Source: Pirellulaceae bacterium (GTDB lineage Bacteria > Planctomycetota > Planctomycetia > Pirellulales > Pirellulaceae). From it: a DNA stretch of 64,000 nucleotides. Position 1 is the first letter of the stretch, and every line of letters starts with the position of its first letter. Below the pieces are notes generated by a model that worked only from the letters and a program-made list of their open reading frames with translations, did no database searches and was not told the DNA's origin. The stretch lies in NCBI GenBank assembly GCA_963851305.1, contig CAWKOT010000011.1, positions 329,716-393,715 of the forward strand, in the 5' to 3' direction. Both the position numbers and the translations under genes were made by a program. Shown in pieces: positions 16,004 to 35,383 of this stretch.

Positions 16004-17302
16004 TCAGGCGTCTTGCCGGCAATGCTGGAAACGCCGTTCCACGGACCGGGCATGTGCTGCCAGGCCTTCCAGTCGCCCCATCGCCTCGGCATCAGTCGCC
16101 AGGCCAGCTGCCGCGACAGGATCATCGATCTGGAGTTGCGTCTGCATTCTCAAGAAAGTGGCTACCGAAAGCGGGCTGTTGGCGCAGGCCGCGCCTCCGG
16201 TCGGCAACACGTGATTCGGCCCTGCTCCGTAATCTCCCAGGACCTCCGCCGCGTAAGAACCGACAAACAACGCCGCGCCCATGTCGAACGTCTCAGCGAC
16301 AGCTTCAAATTCAGCCCCTTGCAACGAGAGATGTTCCGGAGCGATTCGCCGACAACATTCGACCGCCTGTTCCAGGCCGTCCACCACGACGTATCCACCC
16401 GATTGCAAGGCCGTCCGGGCAACTTCTGCGGTGGGCAGGTCGGACAGCTGTTTCTCCAGTTCCGCAGTCACCGCGTCAACCAGTGCTGACGAATTCGTGA
16501 TCAGGATCGGGCGGGCGTCGACATCATGTTCGGCTTGAGCCAACAGGTCCGCGGCGACAAAACCCGCGTCGGCGTCGGCGGAAGCCACGACCACCAATTC
16601 TGACGGTCCCGCCAGCATATCGATTCGCGTCGATCGCGCGACGAGCGCCTTGGCTGCGGTGACAAACCGATTTCCTGGTCCCACAATCACGTCACATTTT
16701 GGCAGTCCGCTGTCCAGACCGGTGCTCATCGCGGCGATCGCCTGAGCGCCGCCCACCGAAATCAACCCGTCGGCGTCTGCGATGGCCGCCGCGGCCAGCG
16801 TCACCGCATCAGGTCGTGGTGAGGCGACCCAGACTTCCCTTACCCCCGCCACTCGAGCCGTCACGGCCGTCATCAGCACCGATGACGGCAACGGATAGCG
16901 ACCACCAGGTGCGTAACATCCGGCCGCCCGCAACGGAATCCAGCGATGGCCGACCGAACCACCCGGAATGTCGACGGAGCAATCGGTAAGTGTTGCCAAT
17001 TGGATTTCGGCAAAACGTCGAATGCGATCGGCAGTCCGCTGCAGCAGCGAACGGATGTCGACATCGACCGTTTGCAGCGCGTTCAACAAATCTGGGCGAT
17101 GTTGTACAAGCGTCGCGTCCTCGGACAGACCGTCAAACTTCGCCGCATACCGACGCACAGCGGCTTCGCCTTCGGCCTGCACATCAGCAACGATCTGGCC
17201 AGCGACGTGATACGTTTCGTCATCGATCGACGAGGTGATCTGGTGAAGTTCATCCGGTGGCAGCTGACGAAATGGAAACATCTTTCGGGATCCTGGGTTC
17301 AA
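16004..17302 (-). CDS. hisD: histidinol dehydrogenase
   Basis: 432-aa ORF. Motifs IPGGSVGHRWIPLRAAGCYAPGGRYPLPSSVLMTAVTARVAGV and AGPNHVLPTGG are characteristic of HisD. Last gene of the his operon. Confidence 0.9.
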   Translation of the reverse strand: MNPGSRKMFPFRQLPPDELHQITSSIDDETYHVAGQIVADVQAEGEAAVRRYAAKFDGLSEDATLVQHRPDLLNALQTVDVDIRSLLQRTADRIRRFAEIQLATLTDCSVDIPGGSVGHRWIPLRAAGCYAPGGRYPLPSSVLMTAVTARVAGVREVWVASPRPDAVTLAAAAIADADGLISVGGAQAIAAMSTGLDSGLPKCDVIVGPGNRFVTAAKALVARSTRIDMLAGPSELVVVASADADAGFVAADLLAQAEHDVDARPILITNSSALVDAVTAELEKQLSDLPTAEVARTALQSGGYVVVDGLEQAVECCRRIAPEHLSLQGAEFEAVAETFDMGAALFVGSYAAEVLGDYGAGPNHVLPTGGAACANSPLSVATFLRMQTQLQIDDPVAAAGLATDAEAMGRLEGLAAHARSVERRFQHCRQDA

Positions 17303-18579
17303 ACGGTATCTCTGCGTGTGACCTTGTCTGCACGTCGGTCGAGTTCGTGTTCGATTTCCGAGAGAGGGATCTGTTCTTTGGCCAAACGAGCCATCGTAAA
17401 GAAGATCACATCGGCGGCTTCGTGAATCACATCCTGCCGGGCAACGGCCTCGTTCAACTCTCTGGCTTCCTCGGCTATTTTTTCAGCCAACAACGCGGGC
17501 GATTGAAACAGGCGATGGGTATACGAAGATTCAGGGGCCGTCCGCATCCGGTCGGCCAGCGTCGTCTCCAACCGCTGAATGCCCTTCAAATCACCGAAAC
17601 AGGTCGGTCGCGACAGATGACAGAATCCGTGTCCCTGCTGGTTCACCGCAAACATCAACGTATCGCGATCGCAGTCACAATGGATCGACAACATTTCTTG
17701 AGTGGCACCCGATGTTTCCCCCTTTCGCCACAGACCCCGTTTCCGCGAAAAGTAGTGCGCGGTTCCGGTATCCAGACTTCTCTGCACGCTTTCCAGGTTG
17801 GAATAGGTCAAGCCCAACGTCTGGCCGGAGGCATTGCAAACCACGGTCGGCCAGAGGCCGTCGGTTCGATCCGAAACCAGCGGTGCACAAAAACACTCCG
17901 CCAAAGTCAACTGCTCCGTGTACAAAGCCATGCCGACCTGGGCATCGATACCAAGTCGATCCAGGGCTGCGATCTCATCGACAGTGGCAACTCCGCCGGC
18001 GATCGTCAGTTGGGCATCTCCGGCGGCGTCCAGATATCGCTTGATCTGTTCAAGATCGATGCCCGCCATTCTGCCTTCCCTTTCAACGAAAGTGATCAGG
18101 AAGCCACCCACGAGATCGCGAAGCACTTCGATCCGCTCCAGCACCGTCGCGCCCGTTTCACGTGTCCAGCCTTGATCGACAACTTGACCGGTCGATCGGG
18201 TTGGATCTTCGGCCGTTCCGGTATGGACTGCGTCGAGTGCGGCGATCAGTCTGTTCCGAGGTAACTGGCTGAGAATCTCAGGTGTGGCGGCGGTGCCCAG
18301 GATCACCTTTTTTGCGCCGGCATCTAACCAGGAGATGGCGGTCTGCGCATCGCGAATGCCACCGCCGACTCGGCAGGGTGCCAAGGCCAACAGCTCGCGA
18401 ATGCGCTCCGTGTTATGGCCCTGTCCTCGGGCCGCATCCAGATCGATCACCGCGATCTCGCCGACTCGGCCGAATTTCTCGGCCAACGGTGCCGGATGGC
18501 CTGCGTTGAGCGCCTGTTCGCGACCGCCAATCAATTGTACGGCATCGCCTGATGCCAGATCTATCGAGGGGATTATCAT
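17299..18579 (-). CDS. hisA/hisIE: trifunctional HisA-HisI-HisE fusion (ProFAR isomerase + PR-AMP cyclohydrolase + PR-ATP pyrophosphatase)
   Basis: The N-terminal 235 aa, starting MIIPSIDLASGDAVQLIGG, is a HisA (beta/alpha)8 barrel. The middle region GETSGATQEMLSIHCDCDRDTLMFAVNQQGHGFCH is HisI. The C-terminal region YTHRLFQSPALLAEKIAEEARELNEAV...EAADVIFFTMARL is HisE. Confidence 0.85.
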   Translation of the reverse strand: MIIPSIDLASGDAVQLIGGREQALNAGHPAPLAEKFGRVGEIAVIDLDAARGQGHNTERIRELLALAPCRVGGGIRDAQTAISWLDAGAKKVILGTAATPEILSQLPRNRLIAALDAVHTGTAEDPTRSTGQVVDQGWTRETGATVLERIEVLRDLVGGFLITFVEREGRMAGIDLEQIKRYLDAAGDAQLTIAGGVATVDEIAALDRLGIDAQVGMALYTEQLTLAECFCAPLVSDRTDGLWPTVVCNASGQTLGLTYSNLESVQRSLDTGTAHYFSRKRGLWRKGETSGATQEMLSIHCDCDRDTLMFAVNQQGHGFCHLSRPTCFGDLKGIQRLETTLADRMRTAPESSYTHRLFQSPALLAEKIAEEARELNEAVARQDVIHEAADVIFFTMARLAKEQIPLSEIEHELDRRADKVTRRDTV

Positions 18580-19328
18580 ATTCGGATCGCCTCTCCCATG
18601 GCTGCCAGTTCTCTTTTCAATTGACCGACCGTGGTCACGCCATCATGCAGAATCGAAGCCAGCAACACGGCGGCTGCGCCGGCCTGCAAACCAAGATGAA
18701 GGTGGTGTGCCGAATCGGCCCCTCCGGAAGCAATCACTGGAATCGCCAGCCGCTGCGTGACGGCGGCCAGCAATTCACAATCGTAGCCACGGCGAGTACC
18801 GTCCTGATCGAAGCTGGTCAGCAGGATTTCCCCGGCCCCGGCCGATTCGACGCGGGTCGCCCACTCGATGACATCCACACCAGTCATTTCTTTTCCGGCG
18901 TGCGTCAGAACATGCCAGCCATCTTCCGCTCGCCGGGCATCGATCGCCACAACGGTACACTGGCGACCGAAACGGTCGGCCATGGCCGTAATCAACTCCG
19001 GTTGCTGAAAAGCCGCGGTGTTGACGCTGACGCGGTCCGCGCCGGCATCGGTCAAACGTTGGACATCATCCATCGTCCTGACGCCGCCGCCAACGGTCAG
19101 CGGAATGGATAGCGATTGGCGAACGTCCTGTACCGTTTGCAATTGGGTCCGTCGGCGGTGATTGGTGGCGGAGATGTCCAGAACCACCAGTTCGTCCGCG
19201 CCCTGAGACTCATAGGCCGCCGCCAATTCGGCTGGGCTGCCGACATCTCTCAGTCCGGCAAACTTGACTCCCTTCACCACCCGATTGTCACTGACATCCA
19301 GGCAGGGGATGATCCGCGAGGTCAACAT
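18576..19328 (-). CDS. hisF: imidazole glycerol phosphate synthase cyclase subunit
   Basis: N-terminus RIIPCLDVSDNRVVKGVKF is a HisF hallmark. 250 aa. Overlaps neighbours by 4 nt. Confidence 0.9.
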   Translation of the reverse strand: MLTSRIIPCLDVSDNRVVKGVKFAGLRDVGSPAELAAAYESQGADELVVLDISATNHRRRTQLQTVQDVRQSLSIPLTVGGGVRTMDDVQRLTDAGADRVSVNTAAFQQPELITAMADRFGRQCTVVAIDARRAEDGWHVLTHAGKEMTGVDVIEWATRVESAGAGEILLTSFDQDGTRRGYDCELLAAVTQRLAIPVIASGGADSAHHLHLGLQAGAAAVLLASILHDGVTTVGQLKRELAAMGEAIRI

Positions 19329-19981
19329 AGTGAACTCTCCTGGTTGTCCGTCCGTATTCCCTGGCTATCTGGCTTCCTGCCCAACCAGCGGGCCAGTAGT
19401 TCCTGCCCTGCGCTGCCAGATAATTCGGGATGGAACTGGCAACCCACGAATCGCCCTTTCCGAACGGCCGCAACCAACGTGAGACCGTGTTCTGATGTGG
19501 CCACCTGCCAACCGCTGGCCGTCAGACGATCGACTTCGCTCAGGCAGTACGAATTTGCATAAAAGACATAACCCGGTTCAAAGAAACCCGTTGGACACTG
19601 CATCCAATTCCATCCGAATTGAGGTACCGAAACGTTACTGGGCAAACGTTCGACATGGACCGGTAACAGACCCAATCCGGCAATCCCCGGGCTTTCCTGA
19701 CTGTCAAGGCAAAGCAGCTGTAATCCAAGACAGATGGCCAGCGTCGGCAGATCGGATTCCAGTCTCGTCCTCAGGACCGATTCCCAGTTCTGTTCGCGAA
19801 GGGCGGCCATTCCTGCCTGGAACGCCCCGACACCGGGAAGGACCAGCGGATCATCCGGTTGCAATTCCGACGGAGCTTTCACGATATAGGATTGGATACC
19901 CAAACGATGGAAGGCGGCCCGCACGGAGGCCAAATTGGCCGTGCCGGTGCGAATGATGGCGACCTGTCGTGGCGAATTCAT
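19322..19981 (-). CDS. hisH: imidazole glycerol phosphate synthase glutamine amidotransferase subunit
   Basis: MNSPRQVAIIRTGTANLASV..LVLPGVGAF..; class-I GATase fold. Start trimmed to the internal Met at 19981, directly after hisB. Confidence 0.9.
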   Translation of the reverse strand: MNSPRQVAIIRTGTANLASVRAAFHRLGIQSYIVKAPSELQPDDPLVLPGVGAFQAGMAALREQNWESVLRTRLESDLPTLAICLGLQLLCLDSQESPGIAGLGLLPVHVERLPSNVSVPQFGWNWMQCPTGFFEPGYVFYANSYCLSEVDRLTASGWQVATSEHGLTLVAAVRKGRFVGCQFHPELSGSAGQELLARWLGRKPDSQGIRTDNQESSLC

Positions 19982-19983
19982 GA

Positions 19984-20585
19984 TTACAGTGAACCTTTGG
20001 TGCTGGGAATGGAGCCTTCGGCGTCGGCCAGCGGTACCGACTGCGAACAAGCGGTACGCATGGCAATCCCGCACGACTTGAATGCGGCCTCGGCACGGTG
20101 ATGATCGTTCGCTCCCCGCAGGACATCCAGATGCAAAGTCAAACGACCGGCCATCGCCAGTGACTGAAAGAAATGAGTCAGATTTTCACAGGCGACGTTA
20201 CCCAGCAACTCCCGTTGCAAACCCAGTTCAACCACCGGGAACGGTCGACCGGAAAGATCGATCACGCAACGCGCCAGGGCTTCATCCAGCGGTGCGTAAG
20301 CGTGTCCAAACCTGCGAATGCCCTGCTTGTTGCCGATGCCCGACCGAGCGCTTCCCCAATGACCAGGCCGCAGTCTTCGACCGTGTGGTGATCGTCGACG
20401 TGCAAGTCTCCATTGGCCTGGAGTGTCAGATCCCAATTGGCGTGAAAGGCCAGGGCCGTCAACATGTGATCGAAGAACCCCAGTCCGGTCGAAACATCAA
20501 TCCGCCGATTTCCTTCCAGATCGATCTCCATTTCGATTTGGGTTTCTCGCGTTTGTCGTTGCAAGCGGCAGCTACGTTCACTCAT
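19984..20585 (-). pseudogene. hisB: imidazoleglycerol-phosphate dehydratase, monofunctional, split by a 1-nt frameshift near 20340
   Basis: N-terminal half (ORF 20262..20585: GLGFFDHMLTALAFHANWDLTLQANGDLHVDDHHTVEDCGLVIGEAL) and C-terminal half (ORF 19984..20436: IGNKQGIRRFGHAYAPLDEALARCVIDLSGRPF...) are in different frames. Junction at CTCGGTCGGGCATCGGC. Confidence 0.8.
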
Positions 20586-22342
20586 GGCAGGTACCTGTCC
20601 AGCGTATTCAAACGGTCCAGAATCAGTGTGGCTCGGGCTTGTCTCAGTTTTTCCAGGGCGAATCGCGGTTCGTCTTTAGGTGCCAGAATACCAAACGGTA
20701 ATACGCCGGCCTGTCGTGCCGCGTTGACATCGTCGGGAGTGTCTCCCACCATCCAGGCTCGATTGGTACCCAACTGGTCCAGAGCGGTTCTGACATTTGC
20801 CGGGTTCGGCTTGGCAGGGCCGTCCTCCATGCAAACCACGGCTGAGAAAAACTGGCTCAGTTGCTGCGATTCCAGGAAGCGGACGGCATCACATCGAGGT
20901 CGGCCGGTCACAATACCCAGTTTGATCCGCCGGCTCAGGTTCTGCAGCCATTGACGGTCAACCAGTTGTTCTTCCGTTTTCCACAGGCCTTCTCGCGATT
21001 CGTCCCCCTGGTAATACCGTTCATAACGCTCCTTGACTTCGTCGAAGGGTCTGTCGATGCCCTTTTCGCGAAGCAGTCGATGCGTAAAAATCCAGTCGTT
21101 GTTGGCGTCGCCGCAGAGTTTCTTTTCCGCGATCTCCATCATCGTGACCGGCAAGCCATACTCTGCGCAAGTCAAACGAATGGCTTCGCGGAACGAACTG
21201 GATTCGTCGACCAGTACCCCATCCATGTCGAAAAGCATGGCCTCGGGACGCAGAATGGTTCGCAAGGAAGCCGCCAGCCGCTCGTACGACGCCCGGTCAC
21301 CAGGACAGGTTATTCGCAGAACGTCAGGTTCACTTTGGAAGGACCTGACCGCAATCCCCAGCGAATCCAGTGCTTTGCCAACGAACTCAGCCGAAGGTCC
21401 GGTCAAACCGAAACGGGCGTACACGAAATTGGCCTGGGAAGGCAATGCTTCGGCGCCGCAGTCATTCAATAGATCCGCCAGTTGCTTTCGCTCTGAACGC
21501 ACCTGTTTCAGATATTCGGTGTCACCTTTGGGACGAGTTTGCAGCATCATGCCGGCAAATTTAAGGGCAGGCCCGGAAACCGGGTACGGCCCCCCTGCCC
21601 GATTCAACAGGGAAATGATGCTGTGGTGACCCATGGCGTAACCGACACGCAGACCGGCCATGCCCCAGGCTTTCGAAAACGTCCTGACGACTACCGCGTT
21701 CGGCAATTCCGACAGGGCAACCGATGTCAAATTGCCCGCGAGTAAGGCGTGCTCGTCGTCTTCGAACTCCGCATAGGCTTGATCGACCAGCAACACGGCG
21801 TGGGGAACGGCCGTTCCAATGGCCAAAAGCTCGTCAGTACCAATCGTGGCACCGGTCGGGTTGTTGGGCGAAACCAGCGCAATCACACTGGTTTTGCTGT
21901 CCGAGATCCGGATCATGTGGTCAATCGGAATACTCCCCCCTGTCCAGGGAACCTGTCGTATCTGCCCGCCAGCCACACTGGCGAAGTGCGGAATCATGGG
22001 AAAGGTCGGATCGGTAACCACGATGTTTCGATCGGCCTGAAGAAAGGCACGACAGATGCGATCGATCGCGTCATCCGCTCCGCTGGTCACGATCACCTGT
22101 TCCGGCGCGATGCTGAACCGGGTGGCGAGCATCCGGGAAATTGAATTCCGCGAGGGGTACTGTCGAATGTCATCGGGCGTGAAGAAGTCGTGAGCCAGAC
22201 CCGACAGGAGCGGGCCTTCGTTCGCATCCAGTTTCAAGTCGATGTGCGATTTTTCGCCAGCCAGCTCGTCTGTGGGCAGCCGCTCGATGCGGTCGGCCGG
22301 TTGAACTTTGGGGTCCCTGGTCGGTTTCAAATCAATCTTCAT
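20582..22342 (-). CDS. hisC: histidinol-phosphate aminotransferase fused to a C-terminal HAD-family phosphatase domain (candidate histidinol-phosphatase)
   Basis: The N-terminal 350 aa are a class-II aminotransferase (LDANEGP..., PLP-fold). The C-terminal 230 aa carry HAD motifs I (LFDMDGVLVDES), II (GIVTGRP) and III/IV (K...MVGDTPDDVNAARQAG). Confidence 0.85.
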   Translation of the reverse strand: MKIDLKPTRDPKVQPADRIERLPTDELAGEKSHIDLKLDANEGPLLSGLAHDFFTPDDIRQYPSRNSISRMLATRFSIAPEQVIVTSGADDAIDRICRAFLQADRNIVVTDPTFPMIPHFASVAGGQIRQVPWTGGSIPIDHMIRISDSKTSVIALVSPNNPTGATIGTDELLAIGTAVPHAVLLVDQAYAEFEDDEHALLAGNLTSVALSELPNAVVVRTFSKAWGMAGLRVGYAMGHHSIISLLNRAGGPYPVSGPALKFAGMMLQTRPKGDTEYLKQVRSERKQLADLLNDCGAEALPSQANFVYARFGLTGPSAEFVGKALDSLGIAVRSFQSEPDVLRITCPGDRASYERLAASLRTILRPEAMLFDMDGVLVDESSSFREAIRLTCAEYGLPVTMMEIAEKKLCGDANNDWIFTHRLLREKGIDRPFDEVKERYERYYQGDESREGLWKTEEQLVDRQWLQNLSRRIKLGIVTGRPRCDAVRFLESQQLSQFFSAVVCMEDGPAKPNPANVRTALDQLGTNRAWMVGDTPDDVNAARQAGVLPFGILAPKDEPRFALEKLRQARATLILDRLNTLDRYLP

Positions 22343-22428
22343 GGCAATCTGGAGAAGGAGAGTTCAGTTACCGTTTGCAGCTATGACGCGGGTTCGGATT
22401 TTGAAACATGCGTCGTTGGTTTATGGCG

Positions 22429-23310
22429 TCAGGGTACGATCTGGCTCACCTTGGTAACCACAACGTCGCGTCCGCCCACCTGCTTTACTCGAGGGATCAC
22501 AAAGGGTAAATCGGTGCGCAGGATCGCCGCCCGAACAGCATACCCCGAATTGCCGGATAACGTTGCGACGGTCGGTTGTTGCATGGCGGGCAGCACGGAA
22601 ATCACGTCTTCCATCTGTTCCGCCGATACGTTGACTTCAATCATCAGTCGTTGCCGACCATCCAGTACCGCCTGCAACAACAGCTTCAGATCTTCGATCC
22701 GCGATCGTTTGGCGGCATCCTTAAAGGCTGCCTGACTGGCGTACAGTCGCGTGCTGGAACGCATGATCTCGTCAATGATTACCAGGCCGTTGTCACGCAG
22801 TGTACTTCCAGTCGCCGTATTGTCGACAATCAGGTCCGCGTCCTCTGGCGGAAAGACTTCGGTCGCACCATTGGATTTGACGAAACCGGCGTCCAGATTC
22901 TTTTCCCGGATCCAGTCTCTGGTAAGCCGCTCATATTCGGATGCGATTCGCAAACGTATTTCCGGCAGCTGCCCGTCGCACAACAGTGGCTGGGGGGCAG
23001 CGGCGACCAGACGGACGCCATTGAGTTGGGTGTCCAGCACTTCGATGATGCCGTCCTCGTCTGAATCGGCCTGCAACTCCGCCACCCAGTCGGCACCGGC
23101 AAATCCGATATCGCGTGATCCCAGATGCAACATCTCCACGATATTTTGCGGCTTCAGCAGTTTCACCTCCGTGCCAGGAAGAGAGAGCGTCGGGCGGTAG
23201 CCGCGGTCAGAACAGATCATGGAGATACCGGCTTCGGCCAGTAACGCCGTGACCGCGTCCTGCATGCGACCCTTCGGCAGTCCGATTCGAAGAATGGAAT
23301 TTGTGTTCAT
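22429..23310 (-). CDS. hisG: ATP phosphoribosyltransferase (long form with C-terminal regulatory domain)
   Basis: MNTNSILRIGLPKGRMQDAVTALLAEAGI...; 293 aa. First gene of the operon. Confidence 0.9.
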   Translation of the reverse strand: MNTNSILRIGLPKGRMQDAVTALLAEAGISMICSDRGYRPTLSLPGTEVKLLKPQNIVEMLHLGSRDIGFAGADWVAELQADSDEDGIIEVLDTQLNGVRLVAAAPQPLLCDGQLPEIRLRIASEYERLTRDWIREKNLDAGFVKSNGATEVFPPEDADLIVDNTATGSTLRDNGLVIIDEIMRSSTRLYASQAAFKDAAKRSRIEDLKLLLQAVLDGRQRLMIEVNVSAEQMEDVISVLPAMQQPTVATLSGNSGYAVRAAILRTDLPFVIPRVKQVGGRDVVVTKVSQIVP

Positions 23311-23361
23311 GTAAGTTTCGTATCAGAGAACGTCTGGAGAGTCGTGTGGTTTGACTGATAT

Positions 23362-23389
23362 AAAAAAACGCTGGCTTGAAGCCAGCGTT
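23362..23389 (-). terminator. intrinsic terminator-like hairpin followed by a U-tract on the minus strand, between the kinase gene and hisG
   Basis: On the plus strand, AAAAAAA precedes AACGCTGGC-ttgaa-GCCAGCGTT. On the minus strand this is a 9-bp GC-rich stem, a 5-nt loop, then UUUUUUU. Confidence 0.5.
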
Positions 23390-23696
23390 CAGAGATGCTT
23401 GTAGATTGAAAATCACACCATCAGCCGGCCGAGATACACCCGGAATGAGGAACCCGATGATGGAGGAGACAGTGAGTCATGCCAAAAATATCCGGCGTTC
23501 GATCGTGGTCGTCAAGGGCAGACGTGGTAGGGAGATCTGCCTTCAGCAATTAAGTCCGTCAGCGCAAGGAAATCATAACGTCAAATCGGTGAACATCTTT
23601 TCGAATTGTTGTTTTTGCTGTCAAACAAACGAAGCCCAGTCCCGACAACGGCTTCCGTATCGGAACGGCCAGGTATCGCTGGACGCTGTTGTTGAT

Positions 23697-25119
23697 CTAA
23701 AACACGAATCCAATCAGGACACCAATCAGGACACCCGTCAACAGACAGAGGATCCCGGTGACAAACAAGGTTTGAACCGAAACTACTGCGGTTTCGGCTG
23801 GAAGTCGTGCGGCGGCTCGATATTGTCCACTGATCGTTGGCGGTGGTGGTTTCTCGGAAGGAGATGAAATGAATGAACCGGTTTCCTGACCCGGGTCATG
23901 CATGCTGATGGTGGGGCTGGGGTAACCCGTATTGGACGTGTCGCTCAGTTCGCTCATGGCCATTTCCGCGATGTCTTCCGGGTCGGTATCCTGATCGTCG
24001 ACCGGTTCGACCGGAGCCGCCATCCAGCGAGGACGGGATTCCGACTCGTTTACCAACAGGCTGTCATCGCTGGCCCACGGTGCCAGCCGCTCGGCCACCT
24101 CCATGGCGGACTGGATTCGTTCGGCGGGATCCTTCTCCATCATGTCGCCAATCAAGTCAACGAATTCATCGCTGACTTCATCGTTGAAACGACGGGGATG
24201 CCAGGGCGTTTCATGCAGATGGCGTCGAGCCTTGCTCTTGGGCGTTCCACCCGGAAAGGGAACTTTGCCGGTGATCGCGTAGTACAGCGTGCAACCTAAC
24301 GAATAGATATCGCTGACCGTGGTCACCTGGGCTGGAGTTCGGATCTGTTCGGGCGACAGGTAATCCGCCGTGCCTACGATCTTCCCGATACGGGGATCGT
24401 TTTCGTCGTTCAGGTAGAACGCCAGACCCAGGTCGGAAACCTTGGCCACGCCTCCAGGGGTGACCATGATGTTTCCCGGTTTGACGTCCCGATGGATCAG
24501 GTTCCTTTCATGCGCATGAGAAAGCCCTTCCGCGGCCTGCTTGATGATGTTGGCCGCCTGCTGAACCGACAGTCGACCCGAAGTTCGGACTAGCCGTCTT
24601 AGATCGGTACCGGGAATGTACTCGACAACCAGGTAATGGACCTTGCCATCCTCACCAGCATCAAACGCCCGCACCAGGTTGGAGTGATCCAATTTGGCCT
24701 GCGCCACGGATTTCGCGTCGAAAATTGGCAATCGACTCGGGCGTATTCTTGTGCAACGGCAGTACCTTGATCGCACATTCCCGTCCCAACATCTCGTGAA
24801 CCGCTTTGAACACCTGCCCCATGCCACCCTGGCCAATCCAGTCGGTGATCACGTAGGCCCCCAGCTTCAGCCTTCTGCGACCAGACAATAACTGGTCGGC
24901 CTGATAGGCGGTGACGACTTTCATCTTCACCAGTTGAGAGGCCAGTTTTCGATCGGAGATTTCCAGGGAGGTGTCCGACCTGGAGCTGTTCTGCAGCAAT
25001 TCGGCCGCCGCCAGCCGTAACTGGTCTTCAGTAACCAGGCCGCTTTTCTTACAGGTTTCCCGGAATTTTCGATTGTCGCCCATGAAACCTTCACTTGCGG
25101 ATAGCCAAACTGCAGACAT
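23697..25119 (-). pseudogene. tail-anchored Ser/Thr protein kinase; kinase domain split by a frameshift near 24720
   Basis: ORF 24661..25119 holds the Gly loop and VAIK motif (IGQGGMGQVFKAVHEMLGRECAIKVLP...FRREI). ORF 23697..24836, in another frame, holds HRDVKPGNIM, DLG and APE motifs, a Pro-rich linker and a C-terminal TM (ILCLLTGVLIGVLIGFVF). Confidence 0.75.
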
Positions 25120-33052: not shown

Positions 33053-33125
33053 GGTGTGGTACGGGAATCGAACCCGTGACAACCAGGTTAACAGCCTGAT
33101 GCTCTGCCAACTGAGCTAACCAATG
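33053..33125 (-). tRNA. tRNA-Asn(GTT)-like; acceptor-stem halves mismatched at the top three pairs (possible pseudo or chimeric tRNA)
   Basis: D-arm GCTC/GAGC, anticodon arm TCAGG-CTGTTAA-CCTGG and T-arm ACGGG-TTCGATT-CCCGT are all good. The 3' acceptor ACCACAC does not pair with the 5' CATTGGT. Confidence 0.45.
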
Positions 33126-33340
33126 AAGGTTGGTTTCGCCATGCCAGTTCGAAGCCAATCACGGTACACTCAACACCAACCAGCTGAATGGGGTGCAGAA
33201 CGCCGCTGGCCATTCTGGCCAAACCTTGCCTGAAAATTCATGTGGATCATCTTCCGTTCAACCACGTCCGTGATGGCAGTGGCTTATTCTTGCCCGTCGT
33301 ACGCCAACCAGGTTAAACGTCAGTCCAACAGGGGACCAGG

Positions 33341-33411
33341 AGACGCCGATGGGAGTCGAACCCATTTCGACCGGGTTGCAACCGGTTGCCTGGCCGTCTG
33401 GCTCCAGCGCC
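33341..33411 (-). tRNA. tRNA-Cys(GCA)-like
   Basis: Anticodon arm ACCGG-TTGCAAC-CCGGT, T-arm ATGGG-TTCGACT-CCCAT. Acceptor GGCGCTG/CGGCGTC pairs with two G-U wobbles. G8, 3-bp D-stem. Confidence 0.5.
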
Positions 33412-33418
33412 CAAATAG

Positions 33419-33489
33419 TAGCCCGTCCAGGAATCGAACCTGGCCTGCGACCTTCGCACGGTCGCGTGCCTCCAACACACTCACAGGCT
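33419..33489 (-). tRNA. tRNA-Arg(GCG)-like
   Basis: Anticodon loop GTGCGAA between CGACC/GGTCG. T-arm CCAGG-TTCGATT-CCTGG. Acceptor AGCCTGT/ACGGGCT. G8 and GTGT D-stem. Confidence 0.5.
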
Positions 33490-33556
33490 ATCTTGTCTTT
33501 TCAGGTTTTCATTTTGATGGTCGGCTCCAACGATCTGTTTCCTTGGCCGTCATCAG

Positions 33557-33628
33557 TACCTCGCCAGGGAATCGAACCCCGTCCTGCAGATTCGAAGTCT
33601 GCCGTGCCATCCGTCACACTCGCAAGGC
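33557..33628 (-). tRNA. tRNA-Arg(TCG)
   Basis: Anticodon arm GCAGA-CTTCGAA-TCTGC. T-arm CGGGG-TTCGATT-CCCTG. Acceptor GCCTTGC/GCGAGGT with two G-U pairs. Confidence 0.55.
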
Positions 33629-33659
33629 ATCCGCATTGGCTTACCGCTGGCCGGTCGAG

Positions 33660-33730
33660 CAGGAGTGCCAGGAATCGAACCCTTTGGTGGCGGTTTTGGA
33701 GGCCGCCCGCTTGCCCAGAAGCACACTGCC
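33660..33730 (-). tRNA. tRNA-Trp(CCA)-like (weak T-stem)
   Basis: Anticodon loop CTCCAAA. T-loop TTCGATT, but the T-stem pairs poorly (AAGGG/CCTGG). Possibly affected by an indel. Confidence 0.4.
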
Positions 33731-33740
33731 GAAGGCGAAG

Positions 33741-33814
33741 GGTATCCGACGGGAATCGAACCCGTACTTCCTGCTTCACAGGCAGGCGTGCATGCCCGCT
33801 ACACTTCGGATACC
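33741..33814 (-). tRNA. tRNA-His(GTG) with G-1
   Basis: Acceptor GTATCCG/CGGATAC is perfect, with an extra 5' G pairing the C73 discriminator. Anticodon arm CCTGC-CTGTGAA-GCAGG. T-arm ACGGG-TTCGATT-CCCGT. A8. Confidence 0.75.
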
Positions 33815-33870
33815 ATGCCAGGGAGATGAAAAGTCGTCGATCCGAAACCGATACGGCCTGGACCAGACTG

Positions 33871-33951
33871 TTTTCATCAGTGGAACGTCGGGGAGTCGAA
33901 CCCCGATTGTCCGGTTGCAAACCAGAAGTCTTCCCGTTGGACCAACGTCCC
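33871..33951 (-). tRNA. tRNA-Ala(TGC) with the G3:U70 identity pair
   Basis: Acceptor GGGACGT/ACGTTCC gives G3-U70. Anticodon arm TCTGG-TTTGCAA-CCGGA. T-arm CGGGG-TTCGACT-CCCCG. U8. Confidence 0.7.
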
Positions 33952-33962
33952 CTGATTGCCCG

Positions 33963-34033
33963 AGGTCCGTCCGGGGTTCGAACCCGGTCTTCGTCGGTAC
34001 CATCAACGCGTGCTGCCGGAACACTTACAGACC
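33963..34033 (-). tRNA. tRNA-Thr(GGT)
   Basis: Anticodon arm CGTTG-ATGGTAC-CGACG. T-arm CCGGG-TTCGAAC-CCCGG. Acceptor GGTCTGT/ACGGACC. A8, GTGT/GCAC D-stem. Confidence 0.6.
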
Positions 34034-34069
34034 AATACAGGCGTCCCCATTTGCCGGGGCAACCTGAAG

Positions 34070-34138
34070 TAGCGGGACCGGGAGTCGCACCCGATGGTCA
34101 AGGCATATGAAACCTCGCTGAGCACTCGCTCGCCCGCT
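34070..34138 (-). tRNA. tRNA-Met(CAT)-like with a non-canonical T-loop (TGCGACT)
   Basis: Anticodon loop TTCATAT. The T-loop has G in place of T55. Acceptor has one mismatch. Possibly degenerate. Confidence 0.4.
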
Positions 34139-34337
34139 CGATTCTTCTTTTGCCGTCCTCCGTCCGTTGCGCTCGGCACGTTGGCAATCCGCTCTGGATC
34201 GGGTTTGTCAGGCCCCACCAGACAGCTGGCCAGATTGCCGTTAATACGAAGCACTGCAGCTTTGCGACTCCAGTAATCTCCAGCAATCTGTCAACGCTCC
34301 TGCGACGGATCCGCCGTACGGACCGTTGATTGTCGAG

Positions 34338-34417
34338 TAGCACGGGTGGGAGTCGAACCCACAGACAATCACGAAGGTTTGAGCTTCGCCGCTTTACCAT
34401 GATTTGCGCACCGTGCC
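34338..34417 (-). tRNA. tRNA-Leu(CAA)-like (extended variable region)
   Basis: Anticodon arm CGAAG-CTCAAAC-CTTCG. Variable region of about 9 nt. T-arm GTGGG-TTCGACT-CCCAC. Acceptor GGCACGG/CCGTGCT. Confidence 0.55.
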
Positions 34418-34424
34418 GCTTGAG

Positions 34425-34499
34425 CGCCCCCGATGGGATTTGAACCCACGACCTCCTGTGTGACAAACAGGCGAGCACTCCGGACTGCTCCACGAGGAC
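34425..34499 (-). tRNA. tRNA-Asp(GTC)
   Basis: Acceptor GTCCTCG/CGGGGGC. D-arm GAGC/GCTC. Anticodon arm CCTGT-TTGTCAC-ACAGG. T-arm GTGGG-TTCAAAT-CCCAT. Canonical U8. Confidence 0.75.
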
Positions 34500-34511
34500 A
34501 TTACATTGCAG

Positions 34512-34584
34512 TAGTCCTGGGTGGACTCGAACCACCGATCTGCTGCTTGTAAGGCAGTTGCCCTCGCCGCTGGGCCACAGGACC
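34512..34584 (-). tRNA. tRNA-Val(TAC)
   Basis: Acceptor GGTCCTG/CAGGACT. D-arm GCCC/GGGC. Anticodon loop CTTACAA. T-arm GGTGG-TTCGAGT-CCACC. Confidence 0.7.
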
Positions 34585-34593
34585 ATGGGTCAG

Positions 34594-34677
34594 CGGAAGC
34601 CGTGGGACTCGAACCCACAAGTCGCGGTACGACCGACTGTTTTCAAGACAGTTTCCTCATCCGGCCGGATGGCTTCC
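34594..34677 (-). tRNA. tRNA-Ser(TGA), type II with a long variable arm
   Basis: Acceptor GGAAGCC/GGCTTCC is perfect. Anticodon arm ACTGT-CTTGAAA-ACAGT. Variable arm of about 17 nt. T-arm GTGGG-TTCGAGT-CCCAC. Confidence 0.7.
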
Positions 34678-34688
34678 GTATTCGCCAG

Positions 34689-34759
34689 CTGCGGGAGTTG
34701 GAATCGAACCAACATCGAAACGTTCAGAGCGTTTCATCCTGCCATTAGAAGATCCCGCA
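34689..34759 (-). tRNA. tRNA-Gln(CTG)
   Basis: Acceptor TGCGGGA/TCCCGCA is perfect. Anticodon arm AAACG-CTCTGAA-CGTTT. T-arm GTTGG-TTCGATT-CCAAC. Confidence 0.65.
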
Positions 34760-34775
34760 GGAGTATTTGCGTCAG

Positions 34776-34848
34776 CTGCGGCGGCAGGAATCGAACCTGC
34801 GGCACGAAGATTAACAGTCCCCGCCCCGTACCAACACAGGACACCGCA
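34776..34848 (-). tRNA. tRNA-Asn(GTT)
   Basis: Acceptor TGCGGTG/CGCCGCA. Anticodon loop CTGTTAA. T-arm GCAGG-TTCGATT-CCTGC. Weak D-stem. Confidence 0.55.
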
Positions 34849-34933
34849 TCAATTTCGTCAATCACAATGGCGGTGTACCCACGCCGGTCTCAACGGATTG
34901 ATGACGAGCGCAGCGGTGCCACGTGTTCACGGA

Positions 34934-35004
34934 AGCGCCCAGCCGGAATCGAACCGACACATCCTGCATGGCAAGCAGGAAGGCTGCCACTACATCATGG
35001 GCGC
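34934..35004 (-). tRNA. tRNA-Gly(GCC)-like (degenerate D-arm)
   Basis: Acceptor GCGCCCA/TGGGCGC is perfect. Anticodon arm CCTGC-TTGCCAT-GCAGG. T-arm GTCGG-TTCGATT-CCGGC. The D-stem is not clearly paired. Confidence 0.5.
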
Positions 35005-35073
35005 GATACAACGCGAACCGAATTGTCAAAGATCAGGCGCGGGTTGTTCAGCATGGCCGAACTTTCCGTGCGT

Positions 35074-35146
35074 TTGTTTTCAGTGGGACCGGAGGGACTT
35101 GAACCCTCACCCGCCTGGGTAAGAACCAGGGATGCTGCCGTTAACA
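35074..35146 (-). tRNA. tRNA-Lys(CTT)
   Basis: Acceptor GGGACTG/CGGTCCC. Anticodon arm CCTGG-TTCTTAC-CCAGG. T-arm GAGGG-TTCAAGT-CCCTC. A8, GTGT D-stem. Confidence 0.6.
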
Positions 35147-35310
35147 CCTCAGTCCCCAATGGTCTGCCGTTGGCATGAAGGAATTGCATCTGGCGGTGTG
35201 ACTTGTCAGATCAACACGCTAAACACGAAGCTTCAGGCCTGCTGTGCGGTATTTCCAACACTCCAGCGGTGATTCATTTGAATTTCCGTTTCCCATTGGT
35301 TCTGGTTTCA

Positions 35311-35383
35311 GTGGTAGTCCTGGGAATCGAATCCTCGTCTGCAGTTTTTCAGACTGCCGCTAAACCGTCTCAGCTACCGGCCC
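35311..35383 (-). tRNA. tRNA-Phe(GAA)-like 5' half with a non-matching 3' half (probable pseudo or chimeric tRNA at the upstream end of the array)
   Basis: The 5' acceptor GGGCCGG, D-arm GCTG-AGACGGTT-TAGC and anticodon arm GCAGT-CTGAAAA-ACTGC are coherent. The T-stem does not pair, and the expected 3' acceptor CCGGCCC is absent. Confidence 0.4.

What the first reader, a model, noticed from the sequence alone, without database searches (positions are those of the whole stretch)
20582..22342. HisC fused to a HAD phosphatase domain, a candidate for the otherwise missing histidinol-phosphatase
hisB in this operon is a 200-aa monofunctional IGP dehydratase, with no HolPase domain. No PHP-type or IMPase-type HolPase lies in the operon. 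The aminotransferase HisC (step 7) instead carries a C-terminal 230-aa HAD-superfamily domain with all four motifs: DMDGV, T, K and GDxxxD. Fusing the enzyme that makes histidinol-phosphate to the one that hydrolyses it would channel consecutive steps. It would also solve the common missing-HolPase problem for this lineage.
Basis: inference. Interest (0 to 1): 0.65.

Follow-up and report, generated by a model that had tools for sequence, protein, structure and literature searches.

The report
HisC fused to histidinol-phosphate phosphatase
One gene in this histidine operon joins the enzyme that makes histidinol phosphate to a phosphatase domain that very probably removes that phosphate, and this fusion, common in many bacterial phyla but still named generically, would supply the one step the operon otherwise lacks.

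Summary
ORF 20582-22342 (-) encodes 586 aa: a HisC-type aminotransferase (about residues 30-364, PLP lysine K224) joined by a three-residue link to a HAD-IA phosphatase (365-586) with all four catalytic motifs.

It is not a frameshift artefact. More than 100 proteins of 560-590 aa share the architecture, and a second assembly of the same organism has the same junction.

The HAD domain fits NCBIfam TIGR01548, a family with no assigned function. In 42 of 49 family loci the HAD lies directly upstream of hisB in a his operon, and in 35 it is fused to hisC. It stays in the operon where the HisC part was lost. It is fused to IGP dehydratase on eukaryote-like contigs, and to HisA-I-E-D-C in one 1501-aa protein.

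A profile comparison links the family to the Thermococcales HAD gene that follows hisC (E 8e-33). A 2024 paper reports that group as verified histidinol-phosphate phosphatases.

Channelling is untested, and another phosphatase elsewhere in the genome cannot be excluded. hisB carries a one-base frameshift in this assembly. I call it a new fusion variant of a known enzyme kind, of moderate interest.

The parts
20582..22342 (-). hisC~hisN fusion gene: 586 aa plus stop
   Evidence: Intact ORF. Two Pfam domains. More than 100 homologues of 560-590 aa share the architecture.
21251..22342 (-). HisC (histidinol-phosphate aminotransferase) part, residues 1-364. The PLP lysine K224 is at 21671-21673.
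   Evidence: The best solved relative is E. coli HisC 1fg3 (E 1.2e-31). K224 aligns to K214 and R232 to R222. S223, K224, R232, R333 and R343 are invariant in 46 fused homologues.
20585..21250 (-). HAD-IA phosphatase part, residues 365-586 (TIGR01548-like). Proposed histidinol-phosphate phosphatase.
   Evidence: Family matches. The AF2 model has pLDDT 95.2 and a Rossmann-like core with an all-helical C1 cap. Its fold matches HAD-IA phosphatases.
21215..21229 (-). HAD motif I, DMDGV (D372 nucleophile, D374 acid/base)
   Evidence: Translation. D372 and D374 are 100% conserved.
21092..21193 (-). Cap segment F384-W417. It carries the positions that align with the specificity fingerprint of the archaeal HolPases: F384 (Tyr in 97% of fused members), R385, K408, D416.
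   Evidence: The fingerprint itself comes from PMC10804674.
20906..20908 (-). HAD motif II, T479 (within VTGRPR)
20810..20812 (-). HAD motif III, K511
20729..20746 (-). HAD motif IV, GDTPDD (D534, D537, D538)
22429..23310 (-). hisG, long form with the C-terminal regulatory domain. First gene of the operon.
   Evidence: Pfam HisG and HisG_C
19984..20585 (-). hisB, IGP dehydratase only. Its ATG overlaps the fusion gene's TGA (ATGA). The frame is broken by one missing base at about 20337/20338.
19322..19981 (-). hisH (glutaminase subunit)
   Evidence: Pfam GATase. ATG at 19981, two bases after the hisB stop.
18576..19328 (-). hisF
   Evidence: Pfam His_biosynth, E 3.5e-78
17299..18579 (-). hisA~hisI~hisE triple fusion, 426 aa
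   Evidence: Pfam His_biosynth, PRA-CH and PRA-PH. The fusion is conserved in the related operons.
16004..17302 (-). hisD, last gene of the operon
   Evidence: Pfam Histidinol_dh, E 1.5e-122

Best explanation
The gene encodes a bifunctional enzyme for steps 7 and 8 of histidine biosynthesis.

The N-terminal HisC part uses PLP, bound to K224, to transaminate imidazole-acetol phosphate to L-histidinol phosphate. The C-terminal HAD-IA part then hydrolyses that phosphate ester through an aspartyl-phosphate intermediate. D372 is the nucleophile, D374 the acid/base, T479 and K511 hold the phosphate, and D534/D538 hold Mg2+. The helical cap selects the substrate. The product, histidinol, goes to HisD, which the same operon encodes.

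The fusion most likely arose from adjacent hisC and hisN genes in the order hisC-hisN-hisB, which still exists unfused in some lineages.

Shown here: the domain make-up, intact catalytic residues in both halves, the wide conservation of the fusion, and its fixed place in his operons.

Inferred: the substrate of the HAD part.

Not shown: any advantage of the fusion beyond co-expression at a 1:1 ratio and proximity.
For: 1. Both halves look catalytically intact.

2. The operon encodes HisG, HisI/E, HisA, HisH/F, HisB, HisC and HisD. The phosphatase is the only activity with no gene of its own.

3. I examined 49 loci from a scan of species-representative genomes. In 35 the HAD is fused to hisC, and 34 of those have hisB next. 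In 8 more the HAD is not seen fused but lies directly upstream of hisB. The phyla include Planctomycetota, Myxococcota, Gemmatimonadota, Acidobacteriota, Actinomycetota (Acidimicrobiia), Krumholzibacteriia, Aminicenantes, Microgenomates, Woesearchaeota and Methanosarcinales.

4. A Longimicrobiales genome has hisG-HAD-hisB with no hisC. Its HAD keeps only the last HisC helix. So the HAD stays with the his genes in its own right.

5. There are independent fusions of the same HAD family. One is HAD+IGPD on eukaryote-like contigs. Another is a 1501-aa HisA-HisI-HisE-HisD-HisC-HAD protein.

6. The family profile's best PDB match is 6iah, Tt82 of Thermococcus thioreducens (identified). That gene and its T. 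kodakarensis orthologue lie immediately after hisC in the his operon.

7. hhalign of the two families gives probability 99.9 and E 8e-33 over 198 columns. The cap positions align as SYR/SYD, K408/R48 and D416/D56.

8. PMC10804674 reports the Thermococcales enzymes, and the related Nitrosopumilus nmHisN between hisC and hisB, as verified and specific HolPases. It also reports Euryarchaeota and delta-proteobacterial homologues with a Y-R-K-D fingerprint. That fingerprint is found in 187 of 228 members here.

9. A transposon insertion in a Haloferax HAD hydrolase gene, HVO_0431, causes histidine auxotrophy (PMC8305020).
Against: - No member of the bacterial fused (Y-R-K-D) group has been assayed. 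I could not align the domain directly with nmHisN because I could not obtain its sequence.

- The window protein has Phe at the fingerprint Tyr (F384). Y24A in nmHisN lowered kcat/KM about 300-fold. Phe occurs in only 7 of 228 members.

- Other fused members have Gln at that position, or Val/Ile at the Lys position. The archaeal fingerprint is therefore not strictly kept.

- Position 25 is Arg here, not Asp.

- Bathyarchaeia members of the family lie next to cobamide genes, not his genes. Two Salinibacteraceae members have no his context.

- IMPase-type HisN is reported as common in Planctomycetia and Myxococcales. This genome may therefore hold a second HolPase.
Confidence: 0.82

Rival explanations
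1. The HAD domain is a phosphatase for some other metabolite, such as phosphoglycolate, a sugar phosphate, phosphoserine or phosphothreonine, or pyrophosphate. It rides with HisC for reasons unrelated to step 8, and the true HolPase (IMPase-type or PHP-type) is encoded elsewhere in the genome.
For: - The next-best family models are phosphoglycolate phosphatase and PpaX.
- The closest folds are generic HAD-IA enzymes.
- IMPase-type HisN is reported as general in Planctomycetia and Myxococcales (PMC5516325).
- The cap fingerprint departs from that of nmHisN.
Against: - TIGR01548 outscores the next model by 60 bits.
- The gene is tied to hisB/hisC in 43 of 49 loci across many phyla. It persists in the operon without HisC and is fused independently to IGPD.
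- No comparable link to any other pathway appears in the bacterial members.
- nmHisN hydrolysed none of nine other phosphoesters tested.
Confidence: 0.1
2. The protein works in cobamide biosynthesis rather than histidine biosynthesis. The aminotransferase-like half would be a CobD-type L-threonine-O-3-phosphate decarboxylase, and the HAD half would act on a phosphorylated cobamide intermediate.
For: - TIGR01140 (CobD) is the second-best NCBIfam model for the N-terminal half, at 162 bits.
- Bathyarchaeia homologues of the HAD lie beside CbiB, a HisC/CobD-like aminotransferase and a CobQ-like gene.
Against: - The hisC model scores higher (211 bits) and E. coli HisC is the best solved relative.
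- The gene sits between hisG and hisB in a complete his operon that has no other hisC. The same holds in 34 other loci.
- The window has no cobamide genes nearby.
Confidence: 0.03
3. The fusion is an assembly or frameshift artefact that joins two separate genes, hisC and a downstream HAD gene.
For: - This assembly has at least one indel, in hisB.
- A second assembly of the same organism has its own indel in hisC.
- Unfused hisC-HAD-hisB arrangements exist in other lineages.
Against: - The junction aligns without a gap to 45 fused homologues. P366, at the junction, is invariant.
- 110 of the best 150 cluster representatives are at least 500 aa with the HAD at the C-terminus.
- The independent Logan assembly L091 is identical across the junction.
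- The model runs from the last HisC helix (350-364) straight into the first HAD strand (368-371).
Confidence: 0.01

Closest known systems
Archaeal monofunctional HAD-type HolPases: toHisN of Thermococcus onnurineus (Lee et al. 2008, as summarised in PMC10804674) and nmHisN (Nmar_1556) of Nitrosopumilus maritimus (Kinateder et al. 2024, PMC10804674). The solved relative is Tt82 of T. thioreducens (PDB 6iah).
   Same: - HAD subfamily IA, with a single helical cap inserted after motif I.
- The gene lies right next to hisC in a his operon.
- Shared cap motifs: S-Y-[R/D], [K/R] followed eight residues later by D, GLW..E and VTGR.
- Profile-profile E 8e-33.
   Different: - Here the phosphatase is covalently fused to HisC.
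- The cap is shorter than in Tt82 and, by the paper's description, than in nmHisN.
- Arg replaces the fingerprint Asp.
- The window copy has Phe for the fingerprint Tyr.
- No bacterial or fused member has been assayed.
NCBIfam TIGR01548 (HAD-SF-IA-hyp1), 'TIGR01548 family HAD-type hydrolase', a hypothetical equivalog with no assigned function
   Same: It is the best model for the HAD domain and for every relative tested. NCBI already names some fused Planctomycetota proteins this way.
   Different: The window copy scores 115-118 bits, below the 140-bit cut-off. The model says nothing about substrate and nothing about the HisC fusion.
E. coli / Salmonella bifunctional HisB (HisNB): a HolPase domain fused to IGP dehydratase
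   Same: A HAD-superfamily HolPase is fused to another enzyme of the histidine pathway. The likely benefit is a fixed ratio of pathway enzymes (PMC1963479).
   Different: - The HAD there is a different branch (DDDD type, without this cap; weak match to TIGR01656 only).
- It is fused to step 6, not to step 7, the step that supplies the phosphatase's substrate.
- It lies at the N-terminus rather than the C-terminus.
PSP-like HAD-IB HolPases of Pseudomonas and Burkholderia (paHisN; PMC5764234, PMC10804674), IMPase-like HisN (PMC5516325) and PHP-type HolPases
   Same: They catalyse the same reaction and fill the same pathway gap.
   Different: Their folds or cap types are unrelated. None is present in the operon or in the window ORFs I scanned.

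Membership tests
HAD superfamily, subfamily IA phosphatase | Four catalytic motifs: DxDx[TV], a Thr/Ser, a Lys, and an acidic GDxxxD-type motif | tested here: met
   D372-M-D-G-V, T479, K511 and G533-D-T-P-D-D538. All are invariant in the homologues.
HAD superfamily, subfamily IA phosphatase | Rossmann-like core with one all-helical C1 cap inserted between motifs I and II | tested here: met
NCBIfam TIGR01548 | Score at or above the curated cut-off of 140.2 bits | tested here: not met
   The window domain scores 115-118 bits. Relatives such as P0234 pass at 155 bits, and NCBI names fused homologues TIGR01548. This is the best model by 60 bits, so I treat the window copy as a divergent relative rather than a formal member.
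toHisN / nmHisN-type HolPases (PMC10804674) | Sequence homology that extends through the cap | tested here: met
   For the Thermococcales branch: hhalign probability 99.9, E 8e-33, 198 columns including the cap, and 6iah is the top PDB sequence hit. For nmHisN itself I could not test, because I could not obtain its sequence.
toHisN / nmHisN-type HolPases (PMC10804674) | Cap fingerprint Y24-D25-K56-E64. Variants the authors accept or discuss are Y-D-R-D and Y-R-K-D. | tested here: inconclusive
   The family consensus is Y-R-K-D (187 of 228). That matches the Euryarchaeota and delta-proteobacterial clusters the authors call 'likely HolPases'. The window copy reads F-R-K-D. Some fused members have Gln for Tyr or Val/Ile for Lys.
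toHisN / nmHisN-type HolPases (PMC10804674) | The gene lies in a his cluster next to hisC and/or hisB | tested here: met
   In the window it is fused to hisC and overlaps the hisB start. Of 49 family loci, 43 have the HAD fused to hisC, directly upstream of hisB, or both. In Thermococcales it follows hisC.
toHisN / nmHisN-type HolPases (PMC10804674) | Specific Mg2+-dependent hydrolysis of L-histidinol phosphate | not testable with these tools
   This needs an enzyme assay or a complementation experiment.
HisC, histidinol-phosphate aminotransferase (class II aminotransferase) | PLP lysine in an S-K motif, the Asn/Asp/Tyr PLP ligands, and the Arg residues that bind the substrate phosphate | tested here: met
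   The alignment to E. coli HisC 1fg3 pairs SPNNPTG, D187/Y190, S223-K224 (= S213-K214), R232 (= R222), and R333 and R343 in the 'VRSF' and 'LRIT' segments. All are invariant in the fused homologues. That the two Arg residues bind the phosphate rests on my knowledge of the E. coli structure.
HisC, histidinol-phosphate aminotransferase (class II aminotransferase) | Score above the curated cut-off of the equivalog model TIGR01141 (276.55 bits) | tested here: not met
   It scores 211 bits. This is still the best model, and it is the only hisC candidate in a complete his operon.
E. coli-type HisB-N (DDDD / HAD-IIIA HolPase, TIGR01656) | Match to the histidinol-phosphatase domain model above its cut-off of 84 bits | tested here: not met
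   It scores 42 bits, over the motif III-IV region only.

The most novel reading that the evidence does not exclude
The HisC~HAD protein would be a true channelling bienzyme. The rigid three-residue junction would hold the HAD active site close enough to the PLP site of the HisC dimer that histidinol phosphate passes across without mixing into the cytosol. More broadly, the function-less TIGR01548 family as a whole would be the 'missing' histidinol-phosphate phosphatase of many bacterial phyla and of some eukaryotes. That would close the gap that an automated tool for annotating amino-acid biosynthesis most often leaves at low confidence: HisN, in 28% of 148 prototrophs (PMC7311316).
Probability: 0.2. 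Interest if true: 0.65.

Novelty: new variant of a known kind. Interest (0 to 1): 0.5.

Why it matters
Histidinol-phosphate phosphatase is the one step of histidine biosynthesis that different lineages carry out with unrelated enzymes. It is also the step that automated pathway reconstruction most often fails to find (PMC7311316).

This work ties a large group of generically named proteins to a biochemically verified archaeal HolPase group and to a fixed position in his operons. The group has about 700 clusters at 50% identity, most of them HisC fusions.

This gives a concrete and cheap experiment: assay or complementation of one protein. A positive result would allow thousands of genes in Planctomycetota, Myxococcota, Gemmatimonadota, Acidobacteriota and other phyla to be re-annotated.

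In the literature I could search, no fusion of a histidine-pathway enzyme to the phosphatase that takes its product has been described. That makes it a clean case for asking whether such fusions channel their intermediate or only fix the ratio of the two enzymes.

Tried and rejected
**Frameshift-artefact origin of the fusion.** Rejected.

**Obtaining the nmHisN (Nmar_1556) sequence for a direct alignment.** The paper's supplements are not held, no other paper holds it, and Lee et al. 2008 is not held. I used the last homologue search on the 6iah sequence. It reached the Thermococcales group but not the Thaumarchaeota.

**Literature searches for a described HisC-HAD fusion or a function for TIGR01548.** Nothing relevant.

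**Programmed frameshifting in hisB.** The site (T CGG GCA TCG) is not a slippery sequence. A sequencing error or a recent one-base loss is more likely.

**A regulatory RNA upstream of hisG.** Rfam finds only tRNAs in the window. The one strong hairpin, at 23366-23390, looks like the terminator of the upstream kinase gene.

**Another HolPase in the window.** None among the 39 ORFs scanned. A 64-kb window says little about the whole genome.
Full report
**What is in the sequence**

The minus-strand ORF 20582-22342 is intact and encodes 586 aa. Pfam finds a class I/II aminotransferase domain (residues 75-360, E 2.4e-47) followed by a HAD_2 domain (370-547, E 8.6e-22).

In NCBIfam the N-terminal half fits hisC best (TIGR01141, 211 bits, below the 276-bit cut-off). 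CobD (TIGR01140, 162 bits) is second. The C-terminal half fits TIGR01548, a 'hypothetical equivalog' HAD-IA family with no assigned function. It scores 115-118 bits against a cut-off of 140, and the next HAD model scores 58 bits.

The HisC half aligns best to E. coli HisC (1fg3, E 1.2e-31). The PLP lysine is kept (K224 = K214), as are R232 (= R222), the SPNNPTG and D..Y segments, and two C-terminal arginines. All of these are invariant in 46 fused homologues.

**The operon**

The order on the minus strand is hisG (22429-23310), hisC~HAD, hisB (19984-20585), hisH (19322-19981), hisF (18576-19328), a hisA~hisI~hisE triple fusion (17299-18579) and hisD (16004-17302). Most junctions overlap or nearly touch. 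The fusion's TGA overlaps the hisB ATG (ATGA).

Every histidine step has a gene here except the histidinol-phosphate phosphatase (HolPase).

It is IGP dehydratase only, but in this assembly it is split between two frames by a missing base at about 20337/20338 (CGG GC[N] ATC). Homologues read G.AL..ALG.R.GI.RFG across that point, and restoring one base gives 200 aa. The site is not a slippery sequence, so I take it for a sequencing error or a very recent lesion.

**Is the fusion real?**

Yes.

- The full-length search returned at least 120 proteins of about 545-660 aa, 43-56% identical, all carrying PF00155 plus PF13419.
- A profile of the HAD domain, run against 1.84 billion cluster representatives, found 700 clusters at E <= 1e-30. 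Of the best 150, 110 are at least 500 aa with the HAD at the C-terminus.
- The junction aligns without gaps, and P366 is invariant.
- An independent Logan assembly of the same organism (L091, 99.93% identical over 2946 nt) has the same junction. It carries its own indel elsewhere in hisC.
- AlphaFold2 models the whole protein confidently (pLDDT 91.6, pTM 0.89). The last HisC helix (350-364) runs into the first HAD strand (368-371).

**What the HAD domain does: genomic evidence**

I scanned one genome per species with the HAD-family alignment. I annotated the loci with the window's own His proteins.

Of 49 family loci:

- **35** have the HAD fused to hisC. In 34 of them hisB is the next gene, in the order hisG - hisC~HAD - hisB - hisH - hisF - hisA~IE - hisD. 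They come from Planctomycetota (including Brocadiaceae, Phycisphaerales and Planctomycetaceae), Myxococcota, Gemmatimonadota/Longimicrobiales, Acidobacteriota, Acidimicrobiia, Krumholzibacteriia, Aminicenantes and Microgenomates.
- **8** have a HAD not seen fused to hisC that still lies directly upstream of hisB. Two of these are cut by a contig end. The others include hisC-HAD-hisB in Woesearchaeota, Acidobacteriia and a Eubacteriales MAG, and HAD-hisB in Methanosarcinales.
- **6** have no his context: 4 Bathyarchaeia and 2 Salinibacteraceae.

Three further observations separate the HAD from a mere passenger role.

- In a Longimicrobiales chromosome the operon is hisG-HAD-hisB-hisHF-hisA~IE-hisD with no hisC. 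The stand-alone HAD still begins with the last HisC helix (VEELERLRAGLGTVLAP). In a rough neighbour-joining tree it nests beside a fused relative. The HisC body was therefore lost while the HAD was kept in the operon.
- The same HAD family is fused to IGP dehydratase on eukaryote-like contigs. The neighbours are cofilin and PAC4, and the IGPD part is split by an intron.
- One 1501-aa protein strings together HisA-HisI-HisE-HisD-HisC-HAD.

**Link to characterised enzymes**

The family profile's best hit among PDB sequences is 6iah (E 7e-21), only slightly ahead of a putative phosphoglycolate phosphatase. 6iah is phosphatase Tt82 of Thermococcus thioreducens.

Its gene, and the T. kodakarensis orthologue (57% identical), lie immediately after hisC at the end of the operon hisZ-G-D-B-H-A-F-IE-C.

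Profile-profile comparison of the two families gives probability 99.9 and E 8e-33 over 198 columns. The cap is aligned: S-Y-R with S-Y-D, K408 with R48, D416 with D56, and the GLW..E and VTGR motifs.

Kinateder et al. 2024 (PMC10804674) state the following:

[quoted passage not shown] 2008).
- Nmar_1556 of Nitrosopumilus, a HAD gene between hisC and hisB, is a specific HolPase. Its kcat is 0.79 s-1 and its KM 73 uM, and it shows no activity on nine other phosphoesters.
- The cap residues Y24, D25, K56 and E64 determine activity.
- Euryarchaeota and delta-proteobacterial homologues carry Y-R-K-D and are 'likely HolPases'.

Y-R-K-D is the fingerprint of 187 of 228 members collected here. The paper does not mention a fusion with HisC.

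A transposon insertion in a Haloferax HAD hydrolase gene, HVO_0431, causes histidine auxotrophy (PMC8305020). I could not show that this protein belongs to the same family.

**Caveats**

- No fused or bacterial member has been assayed.
- I could not obtain the nmHisN sequence, so homology is shown only to the Thermococcales branch.
- The window copy has Phe at the fingerprint Tyr (7 of 228 members). Other fused members have Gln there, or Val/Ile at the Lys. The archaeal fingerprint is therefore not strictly kept.
- Bathyarchaeia members lie next to CbiB, a CobD-like aminotransferase and a CobQ-like gene. The family may not be uniform in function.
- Kulis-Horn et al. 2017 report IMPase-type HisN as general in Planctomycetia and Myxococcales. 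A second HolPase in this genome cannot be excluded. The 39 window ORFs I scanned contain none.

**Comparison with what is known, and novelty**

The reaction and the enzyme kind are known. HAD-type HolPases exist as E. coli HisB-N, as the PSP-like paHisN, and as the archaeal toHisN/nmHisN group to which this domain is related.

What I did not find described in any paper I could search is the covalent fusion of this phosphatase to HisC, the enzyme that makes its substrate, or any function for TIGR01548. NCBI names these proteins 'TIGR01548 family HAD-type hydrolase' or 'aminotransferase class I/II-fold PLP-dependent enzyme', and JGI names them 'histidinol-phosphate aminotransferase'.

I therefore class it as a new variant (a new fusion architecture) of a known kind.

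**Verdict**

- The interpretation as the operon's HolPase is supported, with a probability of about 0.8.
- Channelling, and the claim of a 'missing HolPase in this lineage', remain untested.
- Interest is moderate (0.5). A specialist would not be astonished. But one enzyme assay could justify re-annotating a large, multi-phylum protein family and help close a common gap in pathway reconstruction.

Noticed in passing
window 19984-20585 (-), break at about 20337/20338: hisB is split into two reading frames by one missing base (CGG GC[N] ATC). Both halves are otherwise well conserved. This is either a sequencing error or a very recent inactivation.
   Followed up: partly
window 17299-18579 (-): A single 426-aa protein fuses HisA, HisI and HisE. 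The same triple fusion is present in nearly all the hisC~HAD operons from other phyla. Apart from a brief mention of HisA/F-HisIE fusions in four archaeal assemblies (PMC11237513), I found no description of it in the papers I read.
   Followed up: partly
window 33339-35156 (-): A dense array of 14 tRNA genes: Cys, Arg x2, His, Ala, Thr, Leu, Asp, Val, Ser, Gln, Asn, Gly and Lys (ARAGORN). Rfam lists 12 in 33057-35383.
   Followed up: no
window 23366-23390 (-): A strong 11-bp hairpin followed by a T-run lies between the Ser/Thr kinase gene (23697-24836) and hisG. It is probably the kinase gene's terminator. A role in his regulation was not tested.
   Followed up: no
protein P0308 (1501 aa): A single polypeptide carries HisA, HisI, HisE, HisD, HisC and the TIGR01548-like HAD domain.
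   Followed up: partly
loci L001-L004 (proteins P0223, P0224): A TIGR01548-like HAD is fused to IGP dehydratase on eukaryote-like contigs (neighbours cofilin and PAC4; the IGPD part is split by an intron). This resembles E. coli HisB but is built from a different HAD branch.
   Followed up: partly
L013 / L005-L007 (Longimicrobiales, OZ252109.1), gene at 8001-8744 of L007: A stand-alone HAD in a hisG-HAD-hisB arrangement keeps only the last helix of HisC. Related Longimicrobiales (L027, L017, L038) have the full fusion. This looks like a natural deletion of the HisC body.
   Followed up: yes
L053 9819-10418 and L080 5376-5744 (Woesearchaeota): These his operons carry a second, unrelated generic HAD-IA gene next to hisH (between hisH and hisF in L053). 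In L080 it is the only HAD. It may be yet another HolPase type.
   Followed up: no
L008-L010, L044, L049 (Bathyarchaeia): Family members 36-42% identical to the window domain lie near cobamide genes (CbiB, a CobD/HisC-like aminotransferase, CobQ-like, CobT-like) rather than his genes. This hints at a different or additional substrate in that lineage.
   Followed up: partly
L091 (Logan assembly of run ERR11523668), aligned to window 20500-23445: A second public assembly of the same organism is 99.93% identical. It has its own one-base indel in hisC at window position about 21878, which truncates the called protein to 431 aa.
   Followed up: yes
L028, L032, L033, L035, L039, L045 (Gemmatimonadales, Acidobacteriota, Acidimicrobiia): In these his-operon members the cap Tyr that nmHisN needs is Gln (SQR, SQV, SQT and similar). 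All are fused to hisC except L028, which is cut by a contig end. In the Gemmatimonadales/Longimicrobiales members (including stand-alone L013) the cap Lys is Val or Ile. Substrate recognition may therefore differ from the archaeal enzymes.
   Followed up: no
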